Positions 3,598 to 27,590 of a DNA stretch of 64,000 nucleotides are shown piece after piece. The stretch lies in the sequence record NC_048818.1; one strand, written 5' to 3'. This DNA comes from Escherichia phage VEc33. Numbering within the stretch: the stretch's first letter is position 1; each line of letters begins with the position of its first letter. The position numbers and the translations under genes are program-made. The notes below the pieces were generated by a model. The model did not search any database, was not told the DNA's origin, and worked only from the letters and a program-made list of their open reading frames with translations.

Positions 3598-3676
3598 TGG
3601 CAAACCTACTAGGACTCGAACCTAGACCGTACGGTTTTAGAGACCGACATGCTGTCCAGTAACACTCTAGGAATGC
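3598..3676 (-). ncRNA. tRNA-like element with anticodon-type stem-loop CGGU-CUCUAAA-ACCG (anticodon position CUA)
   Basis: T-arm CTAGG-TTCGAGT-CCTAG and 3' CCA present, but no canonical acceptor pairing found by hand; either pseudo-tRNA or non-canonical tRNA. Confidence 0.35.
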
Positions 3677-21872: not shown

Positions 21873-21942
21873 ATAAATTTTTTAACAATTTGCTAACTTT
21901 TTAGCACAGATCAAAATACAATATCTAAGAGAAAAATTATAT

Positions 21943-21970
21943 TGACATTTGCCCTTGAATAAGCTATAAT
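21943..21970 (+). promoter_or_regulatory. consensus sigma70 promoter for nrdD (TTGACA-16-TATAAT)
   Basis: TTGACA 21943-21948, TATAAT 21965-21970, about 30 nt before the RBS AAAGGAGGG. Confidence 0.6.
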
Positions 21971-21999: not shown

Positions 22000-23874
22000 A
22001 TGAATCGCAATGATGAACTAAAATACAAGGAAATGCAGTCCTTGATTAGAAACTGCAAAGAAATTATTGAGGGTTCTGCTGATGAAGAGCTTCTCTTTAA
22101 TAATGCGAATAAACCCTCTGAGCGTTTCCCTACACAAAGGGATATGCTCGCAGGGGAATTGAGTAAATATCTGATTCTAGAAGAAATGCCAGTTCAGATT
22201 CGAAATGCTCATATGATTGGAGATATTCATTTCCATGATGCTGATTACGCTGCTTTAGGCATGACTAACTGTTGCCTAGTAGCCCTGGAAGATATGTTGA
22301 AAAATGGTATGAAAGTTGGTAATGCTGAAATTAGCACTCCAAACTCTATCACTACTGCGGCTGCTATTACAGCTCAGATTATCACACAGGTTAGCTCCCA
22401 TCAGTATGGGGGTACTTCTGTAGACCGATTAGATGAAGTATTGGCTCCTTATGTTCGTAAGTCTTATGATAAGAATCATGCGTTTGCAAAACGTTGGACT
22501 AAGGATGAAGCCAAAGCATCAGTAATGGCTACGGAGATGACTGAAAAAGAAGTCTATGATGCTTGTCAGGGTCTAGAGTATGAAATCAATACGATGTTCA
22601 ACTCTAATGGTCAGAGTCCATTTATTACCTTTGGTTTTGGTCTAGGAACTTCTTGGGAAGCACGTCTAGTACAGAAAGCAATACTGAAAGTACGTATGGA
22701 TGGCTTAGGTATCAATAAACGTACAGCTATCTTTCCGAAACTGGTGTTTGTTCTGCGTGATGGCGTAAATATGAAGCCAGGGGATGTTAATTATGACATC
22801 AAGAAGTTAGCTATGAAATGTACTGCTGAACGTATGTATCCAGACTATATCAGCTATGATAAGGTTGTGGAAGTTACTGGTGACTATAAAGTTTCTATGG
22901 GCTGCCGTTCATTCCTAGCTGCTGCAGAAGATGGTGAAACTGCCGGTCGTAATAACTTAGGTGTTGTTTCTGTAAACTTGCCTAGAATTGCTATCGAAGC
23001 TGAAGGGAATATTGATCTATTCTTTGATTTGCTTGAGCTACGTGTTGATACAGCGTTAAAAGCGTTGGAGTGGAGAGTTGATCGCTTAAAATACATTCAA
23101 GCTAAAGCCGCGCCCATCCTCTATATGTCAGGAGCCTTTGGGTTACGCTTAGGGCCTGATGAATATGTATTCGATCATTTCTATAACCGTGCTTCTGTAT
23201 CTCTGGGGTATATTGGTTGCCATGAAATGCTACAGTTCATGTTTGGCAAAGATGTAGACACAATGTCCGAGACTTGCATCAAGTTTGTTCAGCGTGTATT
23301 GCAGTACATGCGAGATAGAGTCGATCAGAAGAAGGAAGAGACTAAGTTAGGTTATAGCCTGTATGCTACACCGTCAGAGTCCCTATGCGATCGGTTTTGT
23401 CGTCTAGACCGTGAATATTTCCCGGAGCATGAAGATATTCTGTCTAAAGGATACTACACTAACTCGCACCACCTTGATGTAGAACGCAAAGTTGCTCCCA
23501 ATGTGAAATTTGATTATGAATCTAATTTTACTCCGATTGCTTCTGGTGGGTGCATTTCCTATGTAGAACTACCAGATATGAAACGATTCCCAGATGCACT
23601 GGAATGGGTTATTAATTATGCTGCTAGTAAAGTTCATTACTTCGGTATTAATACTCCAGTGGATTCTTGTAGTAAATGTGGATTCTTAGGTGAAACAATA
23701 GCATCTGAAGATGGATTTAAGTGCCCTATCTGTGGTAATCATGACCCCGAAACTCTTGAAGTAACTCGTCGAGTTTGTGGGTATCTTGGAAATCCGGGTG
23801 CTCGTCCATTTAACCCCGGCAAACAGCACGAGGTGATGGGCAGAGTGAAACATCAGGATATTCGAGCTAAATAA
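22000..23874 (+). CDS. nrdD: anaerobic ribonucleoside-triphosphate reductase (class III)
   Basis: 624 aa; C-terminal Zn ribbon CSKCGF...CPICG and glycyl-radical motif RVCGYLG. Confidence 0.9.
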   Translation: MNRNDELKYKEMQSLIRNCKEIIEGSADEELLFNNANKPSERFPTQRDMLAGELSKYLILEEMPVQIRNAHMIGDIHFHDADYAALGMTNCCLVALEDMLKNGMKVGNAEISTPNSITTAAAITAQIITQVSSHQYGGTSVDRLDEVLAPYVRKSYDKNHAFAKRWTKDEAKASVMATEMTEKEVYDACQGLEYEINTMFNSNGQSPFITFGFGLGTSWEARLVQKAILKVRMDGLGINKRTAIFPKLVFVLRDGVNMKPGDVNYDIKKLAMKCTAERMYPDYISYDKVVEVTGDYKVSMGCRSFLAAAEDGETAGRNNLGVVSVNLPRIAIEAEGNIDLFFDLLELRVDTALKALEWRVDRLKYIQAKAAPILYMSGAFGLRLGPDEYVFDHFYNRASVSLGYIGCHEMLQFMFGKDVDTMSETCIKFVQRVLQYMRDRVDQKKEETKLGYSLYATPSESLCDRFCRLDREYFPEHEDILSKGYYTNSHHLDVERKVAPNVKFDYESNFTPIASGGCISYVELPDMKRFPDALEWVINYAASKVHYFGINTPVDSCSKCGFLGETIASEDGFKCPICGNHDPETLEVTRRVCGYLGNPGARPFNPGKQHEVMGRVKHQDIRAK

Positions 23875-23881
23875 GCTAATC

Positions 23882-23916
23882 AGCCGGGTTGCTAGTCGAC
23901 CTGGCTTTTATTTTAT
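23882..23916 (+). terminator. rho-independent terminator after nrdD
   Basis: hairpin AGCCGGGT...ACCTGGCT followed by TTTTATTTTATTT. Confidence 0.6.
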
Positions 23917-23973: not shown

Positions 23974-24264
23974 ATGAGCGAGTTGCTTCCTAAAGTAGAT
24001 GTCTCCCATCTTGGGGAGCCTAGTGAAGAACGTAAGGCTCTAGATTGGTTGGGTGGATTTGATTATCGTCGTGTTGTTGCAACATGGAATGATAAGAATG
24101 ATAAGAAAGTTAAGAAGTTTCGGGTACATTATGTAGGTAAAGACAAGTGGCTCTGGATTGATTATGAAGAATCAAAGGGGTCTACTAAGGCTGTGAAAAT
24201 TTATTGTATGTATGGGTATTATTATGCTCACTGTGATAAGAATGAATTTACAGTACAGAACTAA
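23974..24264 (+). CDS. hypothetical protein
   Basis: 96 aa ORF downstream of promoter and RBS. Confidence 0.5.
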   Translation: MSELLPKVDVSHLGEPSEERKALDWLGGFDYRRVVATWNDKNDKKVKKFRVHYVGKDKWLWIDYEESKGSTKAVKIYCMYGYYYAHCDKNEFTVQN

Positions 24265-24273
24265 GGAACAAGA

Positions 24274-24477
24274 ATGAAAAACGTAAAACATCTTAAATAT
24301 CGCTTAATTTACAACGGACGTATGGAAACAGAAGATCTGGCCCAATTAGCTATTACTTCTAATGAGGTTACGGTGCGTGCTCTGGCAATTGAAAAGTTGC
24401 GTGCCTCTTATGAAAATCGTGTTATGGAACTGGAGGAGAAACTTTATGGACTTCTTGAATCAGAATCTAAAAAGTAA
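24274..24477 (+). CDS. hypothetical protein
   Basis: 67 aa; RBS AAGGAACAAGA. Confidence 0.45.
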   Translation: MKNVKHLKYRLIYNGRMETEDLAQLAITSNEVTVRALAIEKLRASYENRVMELEEKLYGLLESESKK

Positions 24478-24640
24478 TCCAGAAAACATGCTTATTGAGC
24501 AATGGAACTTTGGTTATAATGCTGGTGTAGCTACTTGTATTGCTAGATTGGATACGCTTATTAAGCAAGAAAAGGTACGCCCTGAGGAAGCAATTTTACT
24601 CCGAAATATTATCGAAGGATTTAAGCAAGGAATCGTATAG
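24446..24640 (+). CDS. hypothetical protein
   Basis: 64 aa from ATG 24446 with GGAGGAG RBS; overlaps previous ORF end. Confidence 0.4.
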   Translation: MDFLNQNLKSNPENMLIEQWNFGYNAGVATCIARLDTLIKQEKVRPEEAILLRNIIEGFKQGIV

Positions 24641-25476
24641 TGCGTAGATTAATTATTATTAGCGGTGCAGGTTTGAGTGTTGAAAGTGGTGTACGAGCTT
24701 TTCGTACTGATACTGCTAGTGGTAAAGCATTGTGGGATGATTATGATCTAGAAGAAGTATGTAATATTCATGCCTTTCGTGGTAATTTTTATCATAAAAC
24801 CCATATGTTTTACAACAAACGTCGTGAAGAGCTAAAAACTGTTGAACCCAATCTTGCACATTTGCGTATTGGTGAATGGTATAAACAATATCCAGGTCAA
24901 GTAGTAAACTTGACTACCAACGTTGATGACCTTATTGAGCGTGCTGGCGTTCCACATAGTGACATTCTGCACATTCACGGATATTTAAAAGAGGTTGTTG
25001 TAGCTGATAGCTACAATAGTAGCAATAAACGGATTATTGATGTAGGGTATAATTCTATTGATCCAGATGATTATAAATGGGTTAAACCTAATGTAATCTT
25101 CTTTGGAGAACATGCTCCTGCATACGCAGAAATGTATAATGTTTTTGATGGTATTACCAGTCAAGATATGATCATTGTGGTTGGTTGCTCTAATCAAGTA
25201 ATTAACTTCTACTGGGAATTATTTCCTGTTCTTAATTTGACTGCTGCCAAACTAATGGTAGTTAACTACTATGATAGTGCCATAGCAGCAGAGCCAGGCT
25301 ATCAAGGTATGACTCGTAGTGAGATGTACCAACTGGAAGATCGTGGTATTCCTTACTGGAGTAATGGTGCGGTAGATGCTTTTAGTGACCCTGATTTTAT
25401 TGCTCGTGTGGAAGCCCATTTAGAGGGTAGACCTTATGTGCCGGAGAGAAGGGGAAACAGATATGTCCATAGTTAA
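24640..25476 (+). CDS. Sir2-family (sirtuin-like) NAD-dependent enzyme lacking the canonical Cys4 zinc ribbon
   Basis: 278 aa, GTG start after AAGGAA; GAGLSVESGVRAFR, TTNVDDL, HIHG; no CxxC...CxxC. Confidence 0.65.
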   Translation: MRRLIIISGAGLSVESGVRAFRTDTASGKALWDDYDLEEVCNIHAFRGNFYHKTHMFYNKRREELKTVEPNLAHLRIGEWYKQYPGQVVNLTTNVDDLIERAGVPHSDILHIHGYLKEVVVADSYNSSNKRIIDVGYNSIDPDDYKWVKPNVIFFGEHAPAYAEMYNVFDGITSQDMIIVVGCSNQVINFYWELFPVLNLTAAKLMVVNYYDSAIAAEPGYQGMTRSEMYQLEDRGIPYWSNGAVDAFSDPDFIARVEAHLEGRPYVPERRGNRYVHS

Positions 25477-25645
25477 ATCTGTTTATACACATCCCGATGA
25501 TATATTTGTATGGGCGGACGGTAGTTGGTGCTATCGCTGTGAGCTATGGGAAATGGACTATAAATCCGATGATTATGGTGTCATATATGTTGATACGGTT
25601 GAGTATGATACGTTCTTAGAAAGGGACAAAAATGGAAATAAGTAA
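25463..25645 (+). CDS. hypothetical small protein
   Basis: 60 aa from ATG 25463 with AGGGGAAA RBS. Confidence 0.35.
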   Translation: MSIVKSVYTHPDDIFVWADGSWCYRCELWEMDYKSDDYGVIYVDTVEYDTFLERDKNGNK

Positions 25646-26138
25646 TACTCCAATTATTTTTCTAGATATTGATGGGGTGCTCAACTCGAGCATCTCCCAT
25701 CACCATGCACCTGATGATGAAAAGATTTTCTTTGGAAGTGACTGGGTTTTTAAACCGCTTCTCAAGGCTTTTCAGGATTTTATTCGTCCTTCTCCAATAA
25801 TGATTGTTGGGGTATCTTCATGGTTCTCTGTCAGGAATGAGATGGAGAACGTTCAGATTATGACCGGATTAGATCTTATCGATCGTTTTCTTGGTACAAC
25901 GGATTTTACTGGTGGTGGATTATCTAGGGGTAATTCTGTTCTTCGCTTCGTTGAAAAGCATAAGCTCAAACATTGGTGTGTGCTGGATGATGCTGGTGCT
26001 ATGATGTATCAGTATCCAACGGTTATAGTCAATGGTAGAACTGGAATAAATCTTCAAGATTTAAGAGCTGTTAGCTATATGTTAGAATTTAGTCCAGATC
26101 TTGAAATGTGTAAAGCCCTGCAACAATTTAAGGTGTAA
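25632..26138 (+). CDS. HAD-superfamily phosphatase-like protein
   Basis: 168 aa; HAD motif I FLDIDGVLN near the N-terminus, acidic motif CVLDDAG near the C-terminus. Confidence 0.55.
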   Translation: MEISNTPIIFLDIDGVLNSSISHHHAPDDEKIFFGSDWVFKPLLKAFQDFIRPSPIMIVGVSSWFSVRNEMENVQIMTGLDLIDRFLGTTDFTGGGLSRGNSVLRFVEKHKLKHWCVLDDAGAMMYQYPTVIVNGRTGINLQDLRAVSYMLEFSPDLEMCKALQQFKV

Positions 26139-26140
26139 AT

Positions 26141-26569
26141 ATGTTCAATAATGTATTCTCTAAAGAGGCTAACCCGATATTGGTTAATTTTTGGCGTACT
26201 CTTCCAGCCAACCTGTACAATGAGGCTATTAATGCTTTGAAAATATGGTGTGAGAATAATGAAATCTCCTTTGCTTTTAAAGGTGAGATTGAAGAGGCTC
26301 CCTGTATTGGTTTAATTGTGCAGGTGGAGGATGGTCTTGAAGAGATTGTCGGCTGGAAAGAGTTGGATGAAATGGGCTTGGTTTTTGCGTTAAACTATAA
26401 GCTGTTTATGCCCAATAAACACCGTATTGTTGTTAACTATAAAACCAATGAATCTCCTGGTTTTCAAGTTAATGAACGGTATGGTTGGTCTTACTCACCA
26501 GAAGAAGTAAATGATGGTATCCAAAAACTTCGTCGTTTTGGTTATCAAATTCCGGGTTTAACCGCCTAA
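26141..26569 (+). CDS. hypothetical protein, tandem paralog A
   Basis: 142 aa; shares PCIG, ELxxMGL(V/I)xALN(Y/F)xLF and (Q/Y)(I/V)PGL motifs with 26579-26971. Confidence 0.5.
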   Translation: MFNNVFSKEANPILVNFWRTLPANLYNEAINALKIWCENNEISFAFKGEIEEAPCIGLIVQVEDGLEEIVGWKELDEMGLVFALNYKLFMPNKHRIVVNYKTNESPGFQVNERYGWSYSPEEVNDGIQKLRRFGYQIPGLTA

Positions 26570-26578
26570 GGGGGCACA

Positions 26579-26971
26579 ATGGAACAAGTATATTGGCGTC
26601 AGATCGACCCTAGTTTGGTGAAGCGTGCAGAGAAGCTGCTACAACGTTGGTTGGGGGTAAGACAAGCCTCCTTCACTTTTCCGGAGCAGCAAATAGACGA
26701 TCCCTGTATTGGTGTTTTCCTATCAGGCTACGCTAGGGAATGGGAATTGGATTGGAATGAGTTGTCTGCTATGGGTTTAATTGTTGCCCTAAATTTCTCT
26801 TTGTTCCATACACGTGGTTTGGCTATATGTCGTGTGCCTGATGACGGTTGTTCGCCCCATCTTTTACAGGTGGAAGATGATATTTGGGAGTACACTCCAG
26901 ATATTCTCAAAGAAGCTAAAGAACAATTAAATCGTGCTGGGATTTATGTTCCAGGCCTGAACGATGAATGA
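26579..26971 (+). CDS. hypothetical protein, tandem paralog B
   Basis: 130 aa; paralogous to 26141-26569. Confidence 0.5.
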   Translation: MEQVYWRQIDPSLVKRAEKLLQRWLGVRQASFTFPEQQIDDPCIGVFLSGYAREWELDWNELSAMGLIVALNFSLFHTRGLAICRVPDDGCSPHLLQVEDDIWEYTPDILKEAKEQLNRAGIYVPGLNDE

Positions 26972-26987
26972 GTTTTATTAGCTGAAC

Positions 26988-27016
26988 TCTGATTACCGAG
27001 CCATTTTGACTCGGTT
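26988..27016 (+). terminator. hairpin terminator after the paralog pair
   Basis: ACCGAG-CCATTTTGA-CTCGGT followed by TTTCTC. Confidence 0.45.
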
Positions 27017-27062
27017 TTCTCTATGTTCAAAGACACTGGTAGCAGCTCCTGGAAAAATCTAC

Positions 27063-27091
27063 TTGCAGGATGCCCAAAATCTTGATATAAT
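27063..27091 (+). promoter_or_regulatory. sigma70-type promoter followed by an unusually long (about 500 nt) leader
   Basis: TTGCAG 27063-27068, TATAAT 27086-27091, conserved TATTTATATTGAATTGAGAG downstream element but no ORF start. Confidence 0.5.
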
Positions 27092-27590
27092 ATTTATATT
27101 GAATTGAGAGACATTAGTAAAAATTGATTTTGCTAATTTTTCTTGTTTACAATCCGCGATACGGAACAGTTAGGCTGCCCCATTAAGGGTTGTTTTAACT
27201 GTTACGTGTTAGTTTTTAAACAAATAGTTAATAGAATACTTAGCGATCTGCGTCCCGTAGGAACCCTGGTAAGGCCTCGAAGCAACCTAGATAGAGGTGG
27301 TTGTGAAGTGAGACGGGAGGAGTGAAAAACTCCGAGACGTGATTCTGTAAGTTATATTGCATCTAGTATGAGCTAGTATATGAAGCATTAGGTGAGCAAA
27401 TCTGGCTTAGCGGCCATCCTCAAGGATTTGTGCGGTATAGCAAAGCAGCAGCGCAGCGTGAAAGTGGAAGTTGCCACCCCACTTCAGTATTTGCGATTAA
27501 TTTGTTGAGAAATTGACAGTAACAGTTGTTCTATTCTTTCTGAATAGTCCTAAAGAAAACTTATTTCATTTCCAACACAGGAGTATTGTT

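What the first reader, a model, noticed from the sequence alone, without database searches (positions are those of the whole stretch)
24640..26971. Sir2-like enzyme without zinc ribbon, followed by a HAD phosphatase and a tandem pair of unknown paralogs
The 24640-25476 product has the sirtuin NAD-binding signature (GAGLSVESGVRAFR, TTNVDDL, HIHG) but lacks the CxxC...CxxC zinc ribbon of classical deacetylases. That architecture is more typical of Sir2 NADases or ADP-ribosyltransferases seen in prokaryotic immune and counter-immune contexts. It is followed by a small ORF, a HAD-family phosphatase (FLDIDGVLN) and two adjacent paralogs (26141-26569, 26579-26971) that share PCIG, ELxxMGL-ALN and PGL motifs and belong to no family I recognise. 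The cluster could be an NAD+/ADP-ribose-related host-takeover or anti-defence module.
Basis: partly seen in the sequence, partly recalled or inferred. Interest (0 to 1): 0.55.

Follow-up and report, generated by a model that had tools for sequence, protein, structure and literature searches.

The report
T5 phage sirtuin–phosphatase early operon
This is the well-conserved early-gene block of T5-like phages: a zinc-less CobB-like sirtuin, a HAD phosphatase of an RNA-repair type, and two small proteins of unknown function; it was already annotated and already predicted to repair RNA, but nobody has tested it.

Summary
The window is a T5-like phage (96.6% nt identity to Escherichia phage JLBYU40). 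Five tightly packed + strand genes at 24640-26971 encode a Sir2-family protein with no possible zinc site, a 60-aa ORF, a HAD phosphatase (Pfam HAD_SAK_2) and two paralogs (31% identical).

By sequence and by predicted fold the Sir2 is closest to deacylase-type class III sirtuins (E. coli CobB, SIRT5). It matches no defence-type Sir2 model. The paralogs belong to a catalogued but uncharacterised family, Pfam DUF7415, which has no recognisable fold relative.

The sirtuin + HAD neighbourhood in T5-like phages was described by Iyer et al. 2022, who predicted Tpt1/KptA-like removal of RNA 2'-phosphates. I confirmed that orthologous sirtuins in Vequintavirinae sit beside an RNA ligase, a cREC domain protein, a P-loop kinase and a MazG-type enzyme. 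T5-like genomes carry none of these.

Phage DT57C has lost Sir2 and HAD but keeps both DUF7415 genes, so Sir2 and HAD are dispensable and the two units are separable. Function remains untested.

Verdict: already known, and ordinary for this phage group. The biochemistry is still an open question.

The parts
21942..21970 (+). Perfect sigma-70 consensus promoter (TTGACA-17-TATAAT) upstream of nrdD; context
   Evidence: 12/12 match.
22000..23874 (+). nrdD, anaerobic ribonucleotide reductase; upstream neighbour, conserved synteny in T5-like phages
23882..23906 (+). Terminator-like hairpin after nrdD. T5 itself has a terminator followed by early promoter T5P31 at the equivalent place.
23974..24264 (+). 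96-aa ORF, function unknown (phrog_7953); first gene of the transcription unit
24274..24477 (+). 67-aa ORF, function unknown (phrog_5236)
24446..24640 (+). 64-aa ORF, function unknown (phrog_5827). Start taken from the JLBYU40 annotation. Its stop overlaps the Sir2 GTG start by one base (ATAGTG).
24640..25476 (+). Phage-clade sirtuin (T5 'cobb'/T5.102): Sir2 catalytic core, no zinc ligands, class III-like Y58-x-x-R61
25463..25645 (+). 60-aa acidic ORF (phrog_5116). It overlaps the end of Sir2 and the start of HAD, which suggests translational coupling.
25632..26138 (+). HAD-superfamily phosphatase, Pfam HAD_SAK_2 ('Swiss Army Knife' RNA-repair HAD). The DxD motif I and DD motif IV are intact.
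26141..26569 (+). DUF7415 paralog A (142 aa; T5 ORF098). Divergent copy: the consensus HP..R of the core is lost.
26579..26971 (+). DUF7415 paralog B (130 aa; T5 'Aeh1ORF298c-like'). Its core is close to the family consensus. AF2 model pLDDT 96.
26996..27021 (+). Hairpin CCGAG-N9-CTCGG followed by a T-run, read by eye. It corresponds to the annotated T5 terminator that ends the unit. A TTGCAG-17-TATAAT promoter follows at 27063-27091.
   Evidence: The scan did not list it because the loop exceeds 8 nt.

Best explanation
This is an early transcription unit of a T5-like phage (T5 promoter P31 to the terminator after parB). It holds two separable accessory units.

Unit 1 is Sir2 + a 60-aa ORF + a HAD phosphatase. 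The Sir2 belongs to a phage-specific clade derived from class III (CobB/SIRT5-like) sirtuins. This clade has lost the zinc ligands but keeps the full NAD+ ribosyl-transfer machinery. The most likely role, as predicted by Iyer et al. 2022, is healing of RNA ends after cleavage by host anticodon nucleases or other metal-independent RNases. In that scheme the sirtuin transfers ADP-ribose from NAD+ onto an RNA 2'-phosphate and so removes it (analogous to Tpt1/KptA). The HAD enzyme removes a terminal phosphate or processes the ADP-ribose phosphate by-product. Sealing would be left to a host ligase such as RtcB.

Unit 2 is the pair of DUF7415 proteins. These are small and acidic and carry a widespread phage accessory domain. 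They more likely bind a protein or a nucleotide-handling enzyme than nucleic acid. They are not obligate partners of the sirtuin.

Shown here: gene identities, conserved catalytic residues, neighbourhoods, separability. Inferred: substrate, reaction and biological role.
For: Identity and operon: (overlapping starts and stops; T5 annotation of promoter and terminator).

Active enzyme: GAGxS..FR, Y58, R61/R62, N94, D96, H113-G114 and KPNVxFFGE are invariant in 29 homologs at 54-86% identity. The HAD catalytic Asp residues are invariant.

RNA-repair context:
- The HAD falls in Pfam HAD_SAK_2.
- In 13 Vequintavirinae-like loci the orthologous sirtuin (49-64% identity) lies in a block of phosphoesterase, RNA ligase, cREC (PF20274) or AAA_33 kinase, Sir2, DNA ligase and MazG.
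- A 607-kb phage contig has a T4 Rnl1-type ligase 2.4 kb upstream of its sirtuin.
- Aeh1 has HAD_SAK_2 and DUF7415 homologs flanking rnlA, with a CCA-adding enzyme nearby.
- Iyer et al. 2022 (PMC9503650, section 3.7.3) describe all three neighbourhood types and name the T5-like phage SP15.
- The window itself carries 14 tRNA genes, which are the obvious substrates to protect.

Clade-wide departures from deacylases: TQNxD is TTNVD, and the strand after GxS reads V-I-N-F where CobB has V-Y-P.

Separability: HAD is absent from L003, L017, L067, L069 and L070. DT57C lacks Sir2 and HAD but keeps both DUF7415 genes at 95% identity.
Against: - I found no biochemical or genetic test of any phage sirtuin in the library.
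- The window and the complete genome of its closest relative contain no homolog of the RNA ligases, cREC, AAA_33 kinase, phosphoesterase, MazG or CCA enzyme found next to the sirtuin elsewhere (phmmer E<=0.01). A T5 pathway would therefore be incomplete without host enzymes.
- The protein is acidic (pI 5.5, net -10), unlike typical RNA-end enzymes.
- Every residue that defines a class III protein deacylase, including Y-x-x-R, is retained. Plain lysine deacylation fits the sequence equally well.
- About 14 of 58 sirtuin loci have neighbours that say nothing.
- Synteny in T5-like phages may reflect shared descent rather than function.
Confidence: 0.4

Rival explanations
1. The sirtuin is an ordinary NAD+-dependent protein lysine deacylase. 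It would be a CobB-like de-acetylase or de-succinylase that resets acylation of host or phage proteins during infection. The HAD gene and the DUF7415 genes would be unrelated neighbours.
For: Best sequence and fold relatives are E. coli CobB, Sir2-Af1/2, SIRT5 and Sir2Tm. The catalytic His, N/D, the FGE loop and the class III Y-x-x-R pair are invariant. The predicted small domain keeps a three-stranded sheet despite the loss of zinc. Skliros et al. 2016 (PMC5107563) argued this for Vibrio phage Sir2 and noted salt bridges in place of the zinc ligands.
Against: The protein fails all NCBIfam CobB equivalog cut-offs (90-100 bits against 243-320). The conserved Gln of TQNxD is replaced, and the strand after GxS reads V-I-N-F where CobB has V-Y-P, across the clade. 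The gene repeatedly lies next to RNA-end-processing genes in unrelated phage lineages, which a general protein deacylase would not explain.
Confidence: 0.3
2. The zinc-less Sir2 is an NADase or a macromolecular ADP-ribosyltransferase used for host takeover or to counter NAD+-based defence, and the whole five-gene cluster is one NAD+/ADP-ribose module.
For: The zinc ligands are absent. Sirtuins can ADP-ribosylate. The block is early-expressed and dispensable, as anti-defence genes often are.
Against: There is no similarity to defence-type Sir2 models. None of the 60 best solved relatives is a defence Sir2. No macrodomain, Nudix or NAD+ salvage gene lies in the unit. T5-like phages depend on an NAD+-dependent DNA ligase, so bulk NAD+ hydrolysis would work against the phage. 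The cluster is separable in nature.
Confidence: 0.1
3. The two DUF7415 proteins are functional partners of the sirtuin, for example a heterodimeric regulator or substrate adaptor, so that Sir2 + DUF7415 is the true core and HAD is optional.
For: All 30 T5-like loci in the IMG/VR sample have one or two DUF7415 genes directly after Sir2, while HAD is present in only 27. Klebsiella and Serratia T5-like phages keep Sir2 + DUF7415 without HAD. Elsewhere DUF7415 is fused to a MazG-like dATP/dGTP pyrophosphohydrolase and to a thymidylate-kinase-like domain. Those are enzyme types that also neighbour the sirtuin in Vequintavirinae.
Against: None of the 28 non-T5 sirtuin loci has DUF7415 within 6 kb. 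The seven standalone DUF7415 genes sampled in other phages and prophages sit in unrelated contexts: between terminase genes, near rIIA/B, after the P2 rep gene, after nrdD, after rnlA, near Dam, and among early genes near YfdP/DUF2303. DT57C keeps both DUF7415 genes intact with Sir2 destroyed. The linkage within T5-like phages may be inherited synteny.
Confidence: 0.15

Closest known systems
Phage sirtuin + 'Swiss-army-knife' HAD neighbourhood of T5-like phages (Iyer, Burroughs, Anantharaman & Aravind 2022, Viruses 14:1977, PMC9503650, section 3.7.3; example Escherichia phage SP15)
   Same: It is the same gene pair in the same phage group. SP15's DUF7415 protein appears among my hits (P0027). 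The same clade of sirtuins neighbours RNA ligase, cREC, kinase and MazG genes in V5-like phages, which I re-verified.
   Different: Nothing material for Sir2 + HAD. In the passages I read, that paper does not discuss the DUF7415 pair, the loss of HAD in some T5-like lineages, or the DT57C deletion.
E. coli CobB / human SIRT5 (class III sirtuins, NAD+-dependent lysine deacylases)
   Same: Same fold (TM 0.85 to 1s5p on the target). Shared GAGxS, the catalytic His, N/D, the FGE loop and the Y-x-x-R pair.
   Different: No zinc ligands. Gln is replaced by Thr in TQNxD. The strand after GxS reads V-I-N-F where CobB has V-Y-P. There is an extra C-terminal helical extension (residues ~215-262). Only ~24% identity. 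It falls below the NCBIfam CobB cut-offs.
Tpt1/KptA RNA 2'-phosphotransferase
   Same: Proposed reaction only: NAD+-dependent removal of an RNA 2'-phosphate through an ADP-ribosylated intermediate. A similar genomic company of RNA ligases and end-healing enzymes in some phages (PMC9503650).
   Different: By established knowledge the folds are unrelated, so there is no homology. This is a functional analogy, it is untested, and it is not a family membership.
Defence-type Sir2 NADases (ThsA, DSR1/2, Sir2-HerA, Sir2-pAgo)
   Same: Sir2 superfamily, and no classical Cys4 zinc ribbon.
   Different: No PADLOC model matches. There is no SLOG, HerA or pAgo partner. It is phage-encoded, early-expressed and standalone. 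Its nearest relatives are deacylases.
Pfam DUF7415 (PF24187) / PHROG 2502 and 3954
   Same: Both paralogs score far above the gathering threshold. The conserved core is W..S.(L/M)GL...(I/L)N....HP.G.A..R.P..G.S......W.Y.
   Different: T5-like versions carry an extra ~55-residue N-terminal half and come as a tandem gene pair. Most family members are standalone proteins of 73-81 aa.

Membership tests
Sir2/sirtuin superfamily (Pfam PF02146) | Profile match above the curated threshold | tested here: met
   88.2 bits against a cutoff of 24, residues 9-187 covering profile positions 1-178 of 180.
Sir2/sirtuin superfamily (Pfam PF02146) | Rossmann NAD+ site (GAGxS..FR), N/D of TQNxD, catalytic His in HG | tested here: met
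   G9-A10-G11, S13, F21, R22, N94, D96 and H113-G114 are invariant in 29 homologs. The Gln of TQN is Thr across the clade.
Sir2/sirtuin superfamily (Pfam PF02146) | Cys4 zinc ribbon in the small domain | tested here: not met
   No Cys or His in residues 114-152. No conserved Cys column in the clade. The AF2 model still predicts a small three-stranded sheet there.
Class III sirtuins (CobB/SIRT5 type) | Y-x-x-R pair that recognises acidic acyl groups | tested here: met
   FYNKRR aligns with CobB FYNARR. Y58 and R61 are invariant.
Class III sirtuins (CobB/SIRT5 type) | Orthology to CobB (NCBIfam equivalog cut-offs) | tested here: not met
   Best scores are 99.9 and 90.1 bits against cut-offs of 243 and 320. 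It is a distinct phage clade.
Class III sirtuins (CobB/SIRT5 type) | NAD+-dependent lysine deacylase activity | not testable with these tools
   Needs an enzyme assay.
Defence-associated Sir2 NADases (ThsA, DSR, Sir2-HerA, Sir2-pAgo) | Match to defence-system Sir2 profiles, and a sensor or partner gene | tested here: not met
   No PADLOC Sir2 model matched at E<=1. The neighbours are HAD, DUF7415, nrdD and the origin-binding protein.
Macrodomain-linked sirtuins (SirTM-type toxin-antitoxin-like pairs) | Adjacent macrodomain gene | tested here: not met
   No Macro hit in any of the eight ORFs of the unit. Iyer et al. also note the absence of a Macro partner for this clade.
Phage RNA-repair sirtuin neighbourhoods (Iyer et al. 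2022) | Sirtuin of the phage clade next to RNA-end-processing genes (type 3: SAK-type HAD) | tested here: met
   HAD_SAK_2 lies one small ORF downstream. 27 of 30 T5-like loci show it. The type 2 neighbourhood was re-verified.
Phage RNA-repair sirtuin neighbourhoods (Iyer et al. 2022) | A complete heal-and-seal enzyme set (ligase, kinase) in the same genome | tested here: not met
   No homolog in the window or in the whole JLBYU40 genome. None is annotated.
Phage RNA-repair sirtuin neighbourhoods (Iyer et al. 2022) | 2'-phosphotransferase activity on RNA | not testable with these tools
   It is a prediction only. I found no experiment.
HAD superfamily, HAD_SAK_2 (PF18143) | Profile match above threshold, with motif I DxD and motif IV acidic pair | tested here: met
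   74.2 bits against 27.5. D12, D14, S62/S63, D119 and D120 are invariant. There is no solved homolog by sequence.
DUF7415 (PF24187) | Profile match above threshold | tested here: met
   110.9 and 107.2 bits against 27.
DUF7415 (PF24187) | Relationship to any fold or domain of known function | tested here: not met

The most novel reading that the evidence does not exclude
The zinc-less phage sirtuin clade would be the first sirtuin that acts on nucleic-acid ends. It would be an NAD+-dependent RNA 2'-phosphotransferase that, together with the SAK-type HAD phosphatase, restores tRNAs cut by host anticodon nucleases. DUF7415 would be a new small domain that docks onto or regulates nucleotide-handling enzymes. 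That second part rests on its fusions to a MazG-like dATP/dGTP pyrophosphohydrolase and to a thymidylate-kinase-like domain, with T5 using a consensus copy plus a degenerate copy as a heterodimer.
Probability: 0.2. Interest if true: 0.65.

Novelty: already known. Interest (0 to 1): 0.3.

Why it matters
If the predicted activity is real, sirtuins would gain a new substrate class (RNA 2'-phosphates). T5-like and V5-like phages would then have an NAD+-dependent answer to tRNA-cleaving defences, and these phages are widely used in phage therapy and defence-system screens. The genes and their association are already in the literature and in hundreds of annotated genomes. What this window adds is therefore a clean test case rather than a discovery. 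Phage DT57C supplies a natural mutant lacking Sir2 and HAD. The DUF7415 family (about 300 clusters at 50% identity) remains a true unknown with a confidently predicted but unmatched fold.

Tried and rejected
1. Defence-type Sir2: rejected. There is no PADLOC hit, and the fold and sequence neighbours are deacylases.
2. Hidden zinc site: rejected. There is no Cys or His in the small-domain segment.
3. Paralogs as fragments of a known domain: rejected. Each is a complete member of DUF7415, and the model has pLDDT 96.
5. Internal duplication of DUF7415 inside each paralog: unproven. Pfam reports two matched stretches per protein. However, an HMM built from standalone members does not detect the N-terminal half, and hhalign of the N-halves against the C-halves gives only 8% probability. 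An earlier apparent hit was an artefact of a parA fragment (P0115) in my seed.
6. DUF7415 as a consistent RNA-repair neighbour: suggested by Aeh1 but rejected after sampling other contexts.
7. Search for an RNA ligase, kinase or cREC gene in T5-like genomes: none found.
8. Rfam scan of the 540-nt spacer after parB: nothing significant.
9. Burroughs & Aravind 2016 could not be read.
10. GenBank product names 'exonuclease', 'tail tube protein' and a second 'Sir2' for these ORFs: no family search supports them. PHROG 18062, labelled 'Sir2', actually matches the C-terminal part of the HAD. It probably stems from chimeric Sir2/HAD remnants such as the one in DT57C.
Full report
**Observation.**
- Sir2 is at 24640-25476 (278 aa, GTG start).
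- The small ORF is listed as 25436-25645. Its better-supported start is ATG 25463, giving 60 aa.
- The HAD phosphatase is at 25632-26138.
- The two paralogs are at 26141-26569 and 26579-26971.

The quoted motifs are at the stated places. The paralogs are 31% identical (E 5e-18). The Sir2 has two cysteines in total. It has no Cys or His at all between residues 114 and 152, where sirtuins carry their zinc module. The genes are packed with overlapping or nearly abutting stops and starts.

**What the window is.** The stretch is 96.6% identical to Escherichia phage JLBYU40 (Tequintavirus) and matches more than 500 T5-like records. In T5 itself the block is annotated as follows:
- nrdD, a terminator, then early promoter T5P31;
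- ORF094, ORF095, and 'cobb, putative transferase';
- an 'Aeh1ORF302c-like' gene (the HAD), ORF098, and an 'Aeh1ORF298c-like' gene;
- a terminator, early promoter T5P32, then the origin-binding protein.

In the window I find a perfect consensus promoter ahead of nrdD, a hairpin after nrdD, and a hairpin plus T-run at 26996-27021. The block is therefore an early transcription unit of an ordinary T5-like phage.

**The sirtuin.** The evidence places it among deacylase-type sirtuins, not defence-type ones.
- It matches Pfam SIR2 across the whole profile (E 8e-25) and phrog_2162 (E 4e-121).
- No PADLOC defence model matches it.
- The best solved relatives by sequence are E. coli CobB (E 2e-17; with a clade profile E 2e-30), Sir2-Af1/Af2, SIRT5 and Sir2Tm.
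- An AlphaFold2 model (pLDDT 88) superposes best on CobB 1s5p (TM 0.85 on the target). All 50 best Foldseek hits are deacylase-type sirtuins.
- Across 29 phage homologs at 54-86% identity these residues are invariant: G9-A10-G11, S13, F21-R22, Y58, R61-R62, N94, D96, H113-G114, K149-P150, F154-F155, E157, G182 and S184. The enzyme is therefore under selection as an active NAD+-ribosyl-transfer catalyst. It retains the Y-x-x-R pair of class III sirtuins.

It also departs from CobB in ways shared by the whole clade:
- there are no zinc ligands;
- TQNxD reads TTNVD;
- the strand after GxS reads V-I-N-F where CobB has V-Y-P;
- it falls far below the NCBIfam CobB equivalog cut-offs.

The loss of zinc ligands in phage Sir2/CobB proteins was already noted for Vibrio phages, where salt bridges were proposed to replace them (PMC5107563).

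**The HAD.** It matches Pfam HAD_SAK_2, 'HAD domain in Swiss Army Knife RNA repair proteins' (E 2e-20). Motif I (D12-x-D14), S62/S63 and D119-D120 are invariant in distant homologs from T4-like phages. It has no solved relative by sequence.

**The paralogs.** Both are members of Pfam DUF7415 (E 3e-32 and 5e-31) and of phrog_2502.
- The family core is about 55 residues: W..S.(L/M)GL...(I/L)N....HP.G.A..R.P..G.S......W.Y.
- Most members are standalone proteins of 73-81 aa in prophages and phages. An exhaustive profile search finds about 300 clusters at 50% identity.
- The T5-type proteins add an N-terminal half of about 55 residues. Paralog B keeps the consensus core, whereas paralog A has lost the HP..R positions.
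- The AlphaFold2 model of paralog B is very confident (pLDDT 96, pTM 0.89). It is a small alpha/beta fold.
- The proteins are acidic (pI 4.4-5.2). This argues against nucleic-acid binding and for protein or ligand binding.
- A few family members are fused to other domains: a MazG-like dATP/dGTP pyrophosphohydrolase (two clusters, one of them a confirmed single ORF in a temperate-phage early region), a thymidylate-kinase-like domain, an ASCH/DUF3850 domain and a ClpX zinc finger.

**Comparative genomics.** I fetched 58 IMG/VR loci that encode the phage sirtuin clade and annotated them with local profiles.
- Thirty are T5-like, with the origin-binding protein downstream. All 30 have one or two DUF7415 genes directly after Sir2, and 27 have the HAD.
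- HAD-less variants also occur in a Klebsiella phage (Sir2, small ORF, two DUF7415 genes) and in Serratia phage Slocum (Sir2, one DUF7415 gene).
- Thirteen Vequintavirinae-like loci instead show a block of phosphoesterase, RNA ligase, cREC (PF20274) or AAA_33 kinase, Sir2, DNA ligase and MazG.
- One 607-kb contig has a T4 Rnl1-type ligase 2.4 kb upstream of its sirtuin.
- About 14 loci have uninformative neighbours.
- None of the 28 non-T5 loci has DUF7415 nearby.

Standalone DUF7415 genes sit in unrelated places: between terminase genes, near rIIA/B, after the P2 rep gene, after nrdD, near Dam, among early genes near YfdP/DUF2303, and in Aeh1 directly after RNA ligase 1 with a HAD_SAK_2 gene and a CCA-adding enzyme close by.

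Phage DT57C is a viable T5-like phage that carries a chimeric 90-aa remnant. The window coordinates 24640-25132 and 25276-26029 have no counterpart in it, so Sir2, the small ORF and most of the HAD are gone. Both DUF7415 genes are intact at 95% identity. Sir2 and HAD are therefore dispensable for growth, and the DUF7415 pair is maintained without them.

**Mechanism.** The best-supported reading is the published one (PMC9503650, section 3.7.3). In it the phage sirtuin clade works in RNA-end healing, using NAD+ to remove 2'-phosphates as Tpt1/KptA does, with the HAD acting as an end or by-product phosphatase.

My independent checks support the neighbourhood argument. The window also carries 14 tRNA genes that would benefit from such repair.

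Three things weigh against this reading:
- T5-like genomes encode no RNA ligase, kinase, cREC or MazG homolog, so sealing would need a host enzyme;
- the protein is acidic;
- every deacylase feature is kept.

I put RNA-end healing at about 0.4, plain protein deacylation at about 0.3, an NADase or ADP-ribosyltransferase anti-defence role at about 0.1, and an obligate Sir2-DUF7415 partnership at about 0.15. I found no experimental work on any phage sirtuin.

**Verdict.** The genes have been annotated since the T5 genome. The sirtuin-HAD association and its RNA-repair prediction were published in 2022, and the paralogs are a catalogued DUF. What is new here is minor:
- the DUF7415 pair tracks the sirtuin across T5-like lineages more faithfully than the HAD does, yet survives the loss of Sir2;
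- DUF7415 has an unmatched, confidently predicted fold and occasional fusions to nucleotide enzymes;
- DT57C is a ready-made natural mutant.

I rate interest at 0.3 and novelty as already known.

Noticed in passing
window 3598-3674 (- strand): A tRNA with anticodon CUA, which ARAGORN labels 'Pyl'. It differs by a single anticodon base (CCA to CTA) from the tRNA-Trp(CCA) of the close relative JLBYU40 and is otherwise identical, so it looks like an amber-suppressor derivative of the phage tRNA-Trp.
   Followed up: partly
window 26972-27512; L001 6103-6555: JLBYU40 has a 453-nt HNH endonuclease gene inserted between paralog B and the origin-binding protein. This window lacks it and has a ~540-nt spacer with a terminator hairpin (26996-27021) and a TTGCAG-17-TATAAT promoter (27063-27091). 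Rfam finds nothing there.
   Followed up: partly
L080 3480-3752 (Escherichia phage DT57C, NC_027356): A natural deletion leaves a 90-aa chimera of Sir2 residues ~165-212 fused to the last ~35 residues of the HAD. Both DUF7415 genes downstream are intact. Shigella phage SHSML-45 also retains only the C-terminal part of the HAD (residues 64-168), under a 'Sir2' annotation.
   Followed up: yes
window 25632-26971 and public records: Public annotations appear to carry propagated errors. Paralog A is called 'exonuclease', paralog B 'tail tube protein', and the HAD is often a second 'Sir2 (NAD-dependent deacetylase)'. PHROG 18062, labelled Sir2, actually matches HAD residues 77-168 (E 2e-58).
   Followed up: partly
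L008 3958-6519 (Aeromonas phage Aeh1, NC_005260): In this T4-like phage a 77-aa DUF7415 gene abuts RNA ligase 1 (rnlA). A HAD_SAK_2 homolog lies three genes away and a CCA-adding enzyme about 2.5 kb further on. It is the only DUF7415 context I saw with a clear RNA-repair flavour.
   Followed up: partly
L079 5001-5864; proteins P0332, P0334, P0341: Single ORFs fuse a dATP/dGTP pyrophosphohydrolase domain (PF04447) to a C-terminal DUF7415 domain; the sampled case lies in a temperate-phage early region. Another protein combines DUF7415 with a thymidylate-kinase-like domain.
   Followed up: partly
L002 3980-4213 (Klebsiella phage Phi_KR1) and similar T4-like Klebsiella phages: A 77-aa DUF7415 gene overlaps the 3' end of nrdD. 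In T5-like phages the DUF7415 pair also lies about 2.3 kb downstream of nrdD. This recurrent proximity to the anaerobic ribonucleotide reductase is unexplained.
   Followed up: no
window 21942-21970: A 12/12 match to the sigma-70 consensus (TTGACA-17-TATAAT) lies 30 nt upstream of nrdD, typical of strong T5 early promoters.
   Followed up: no
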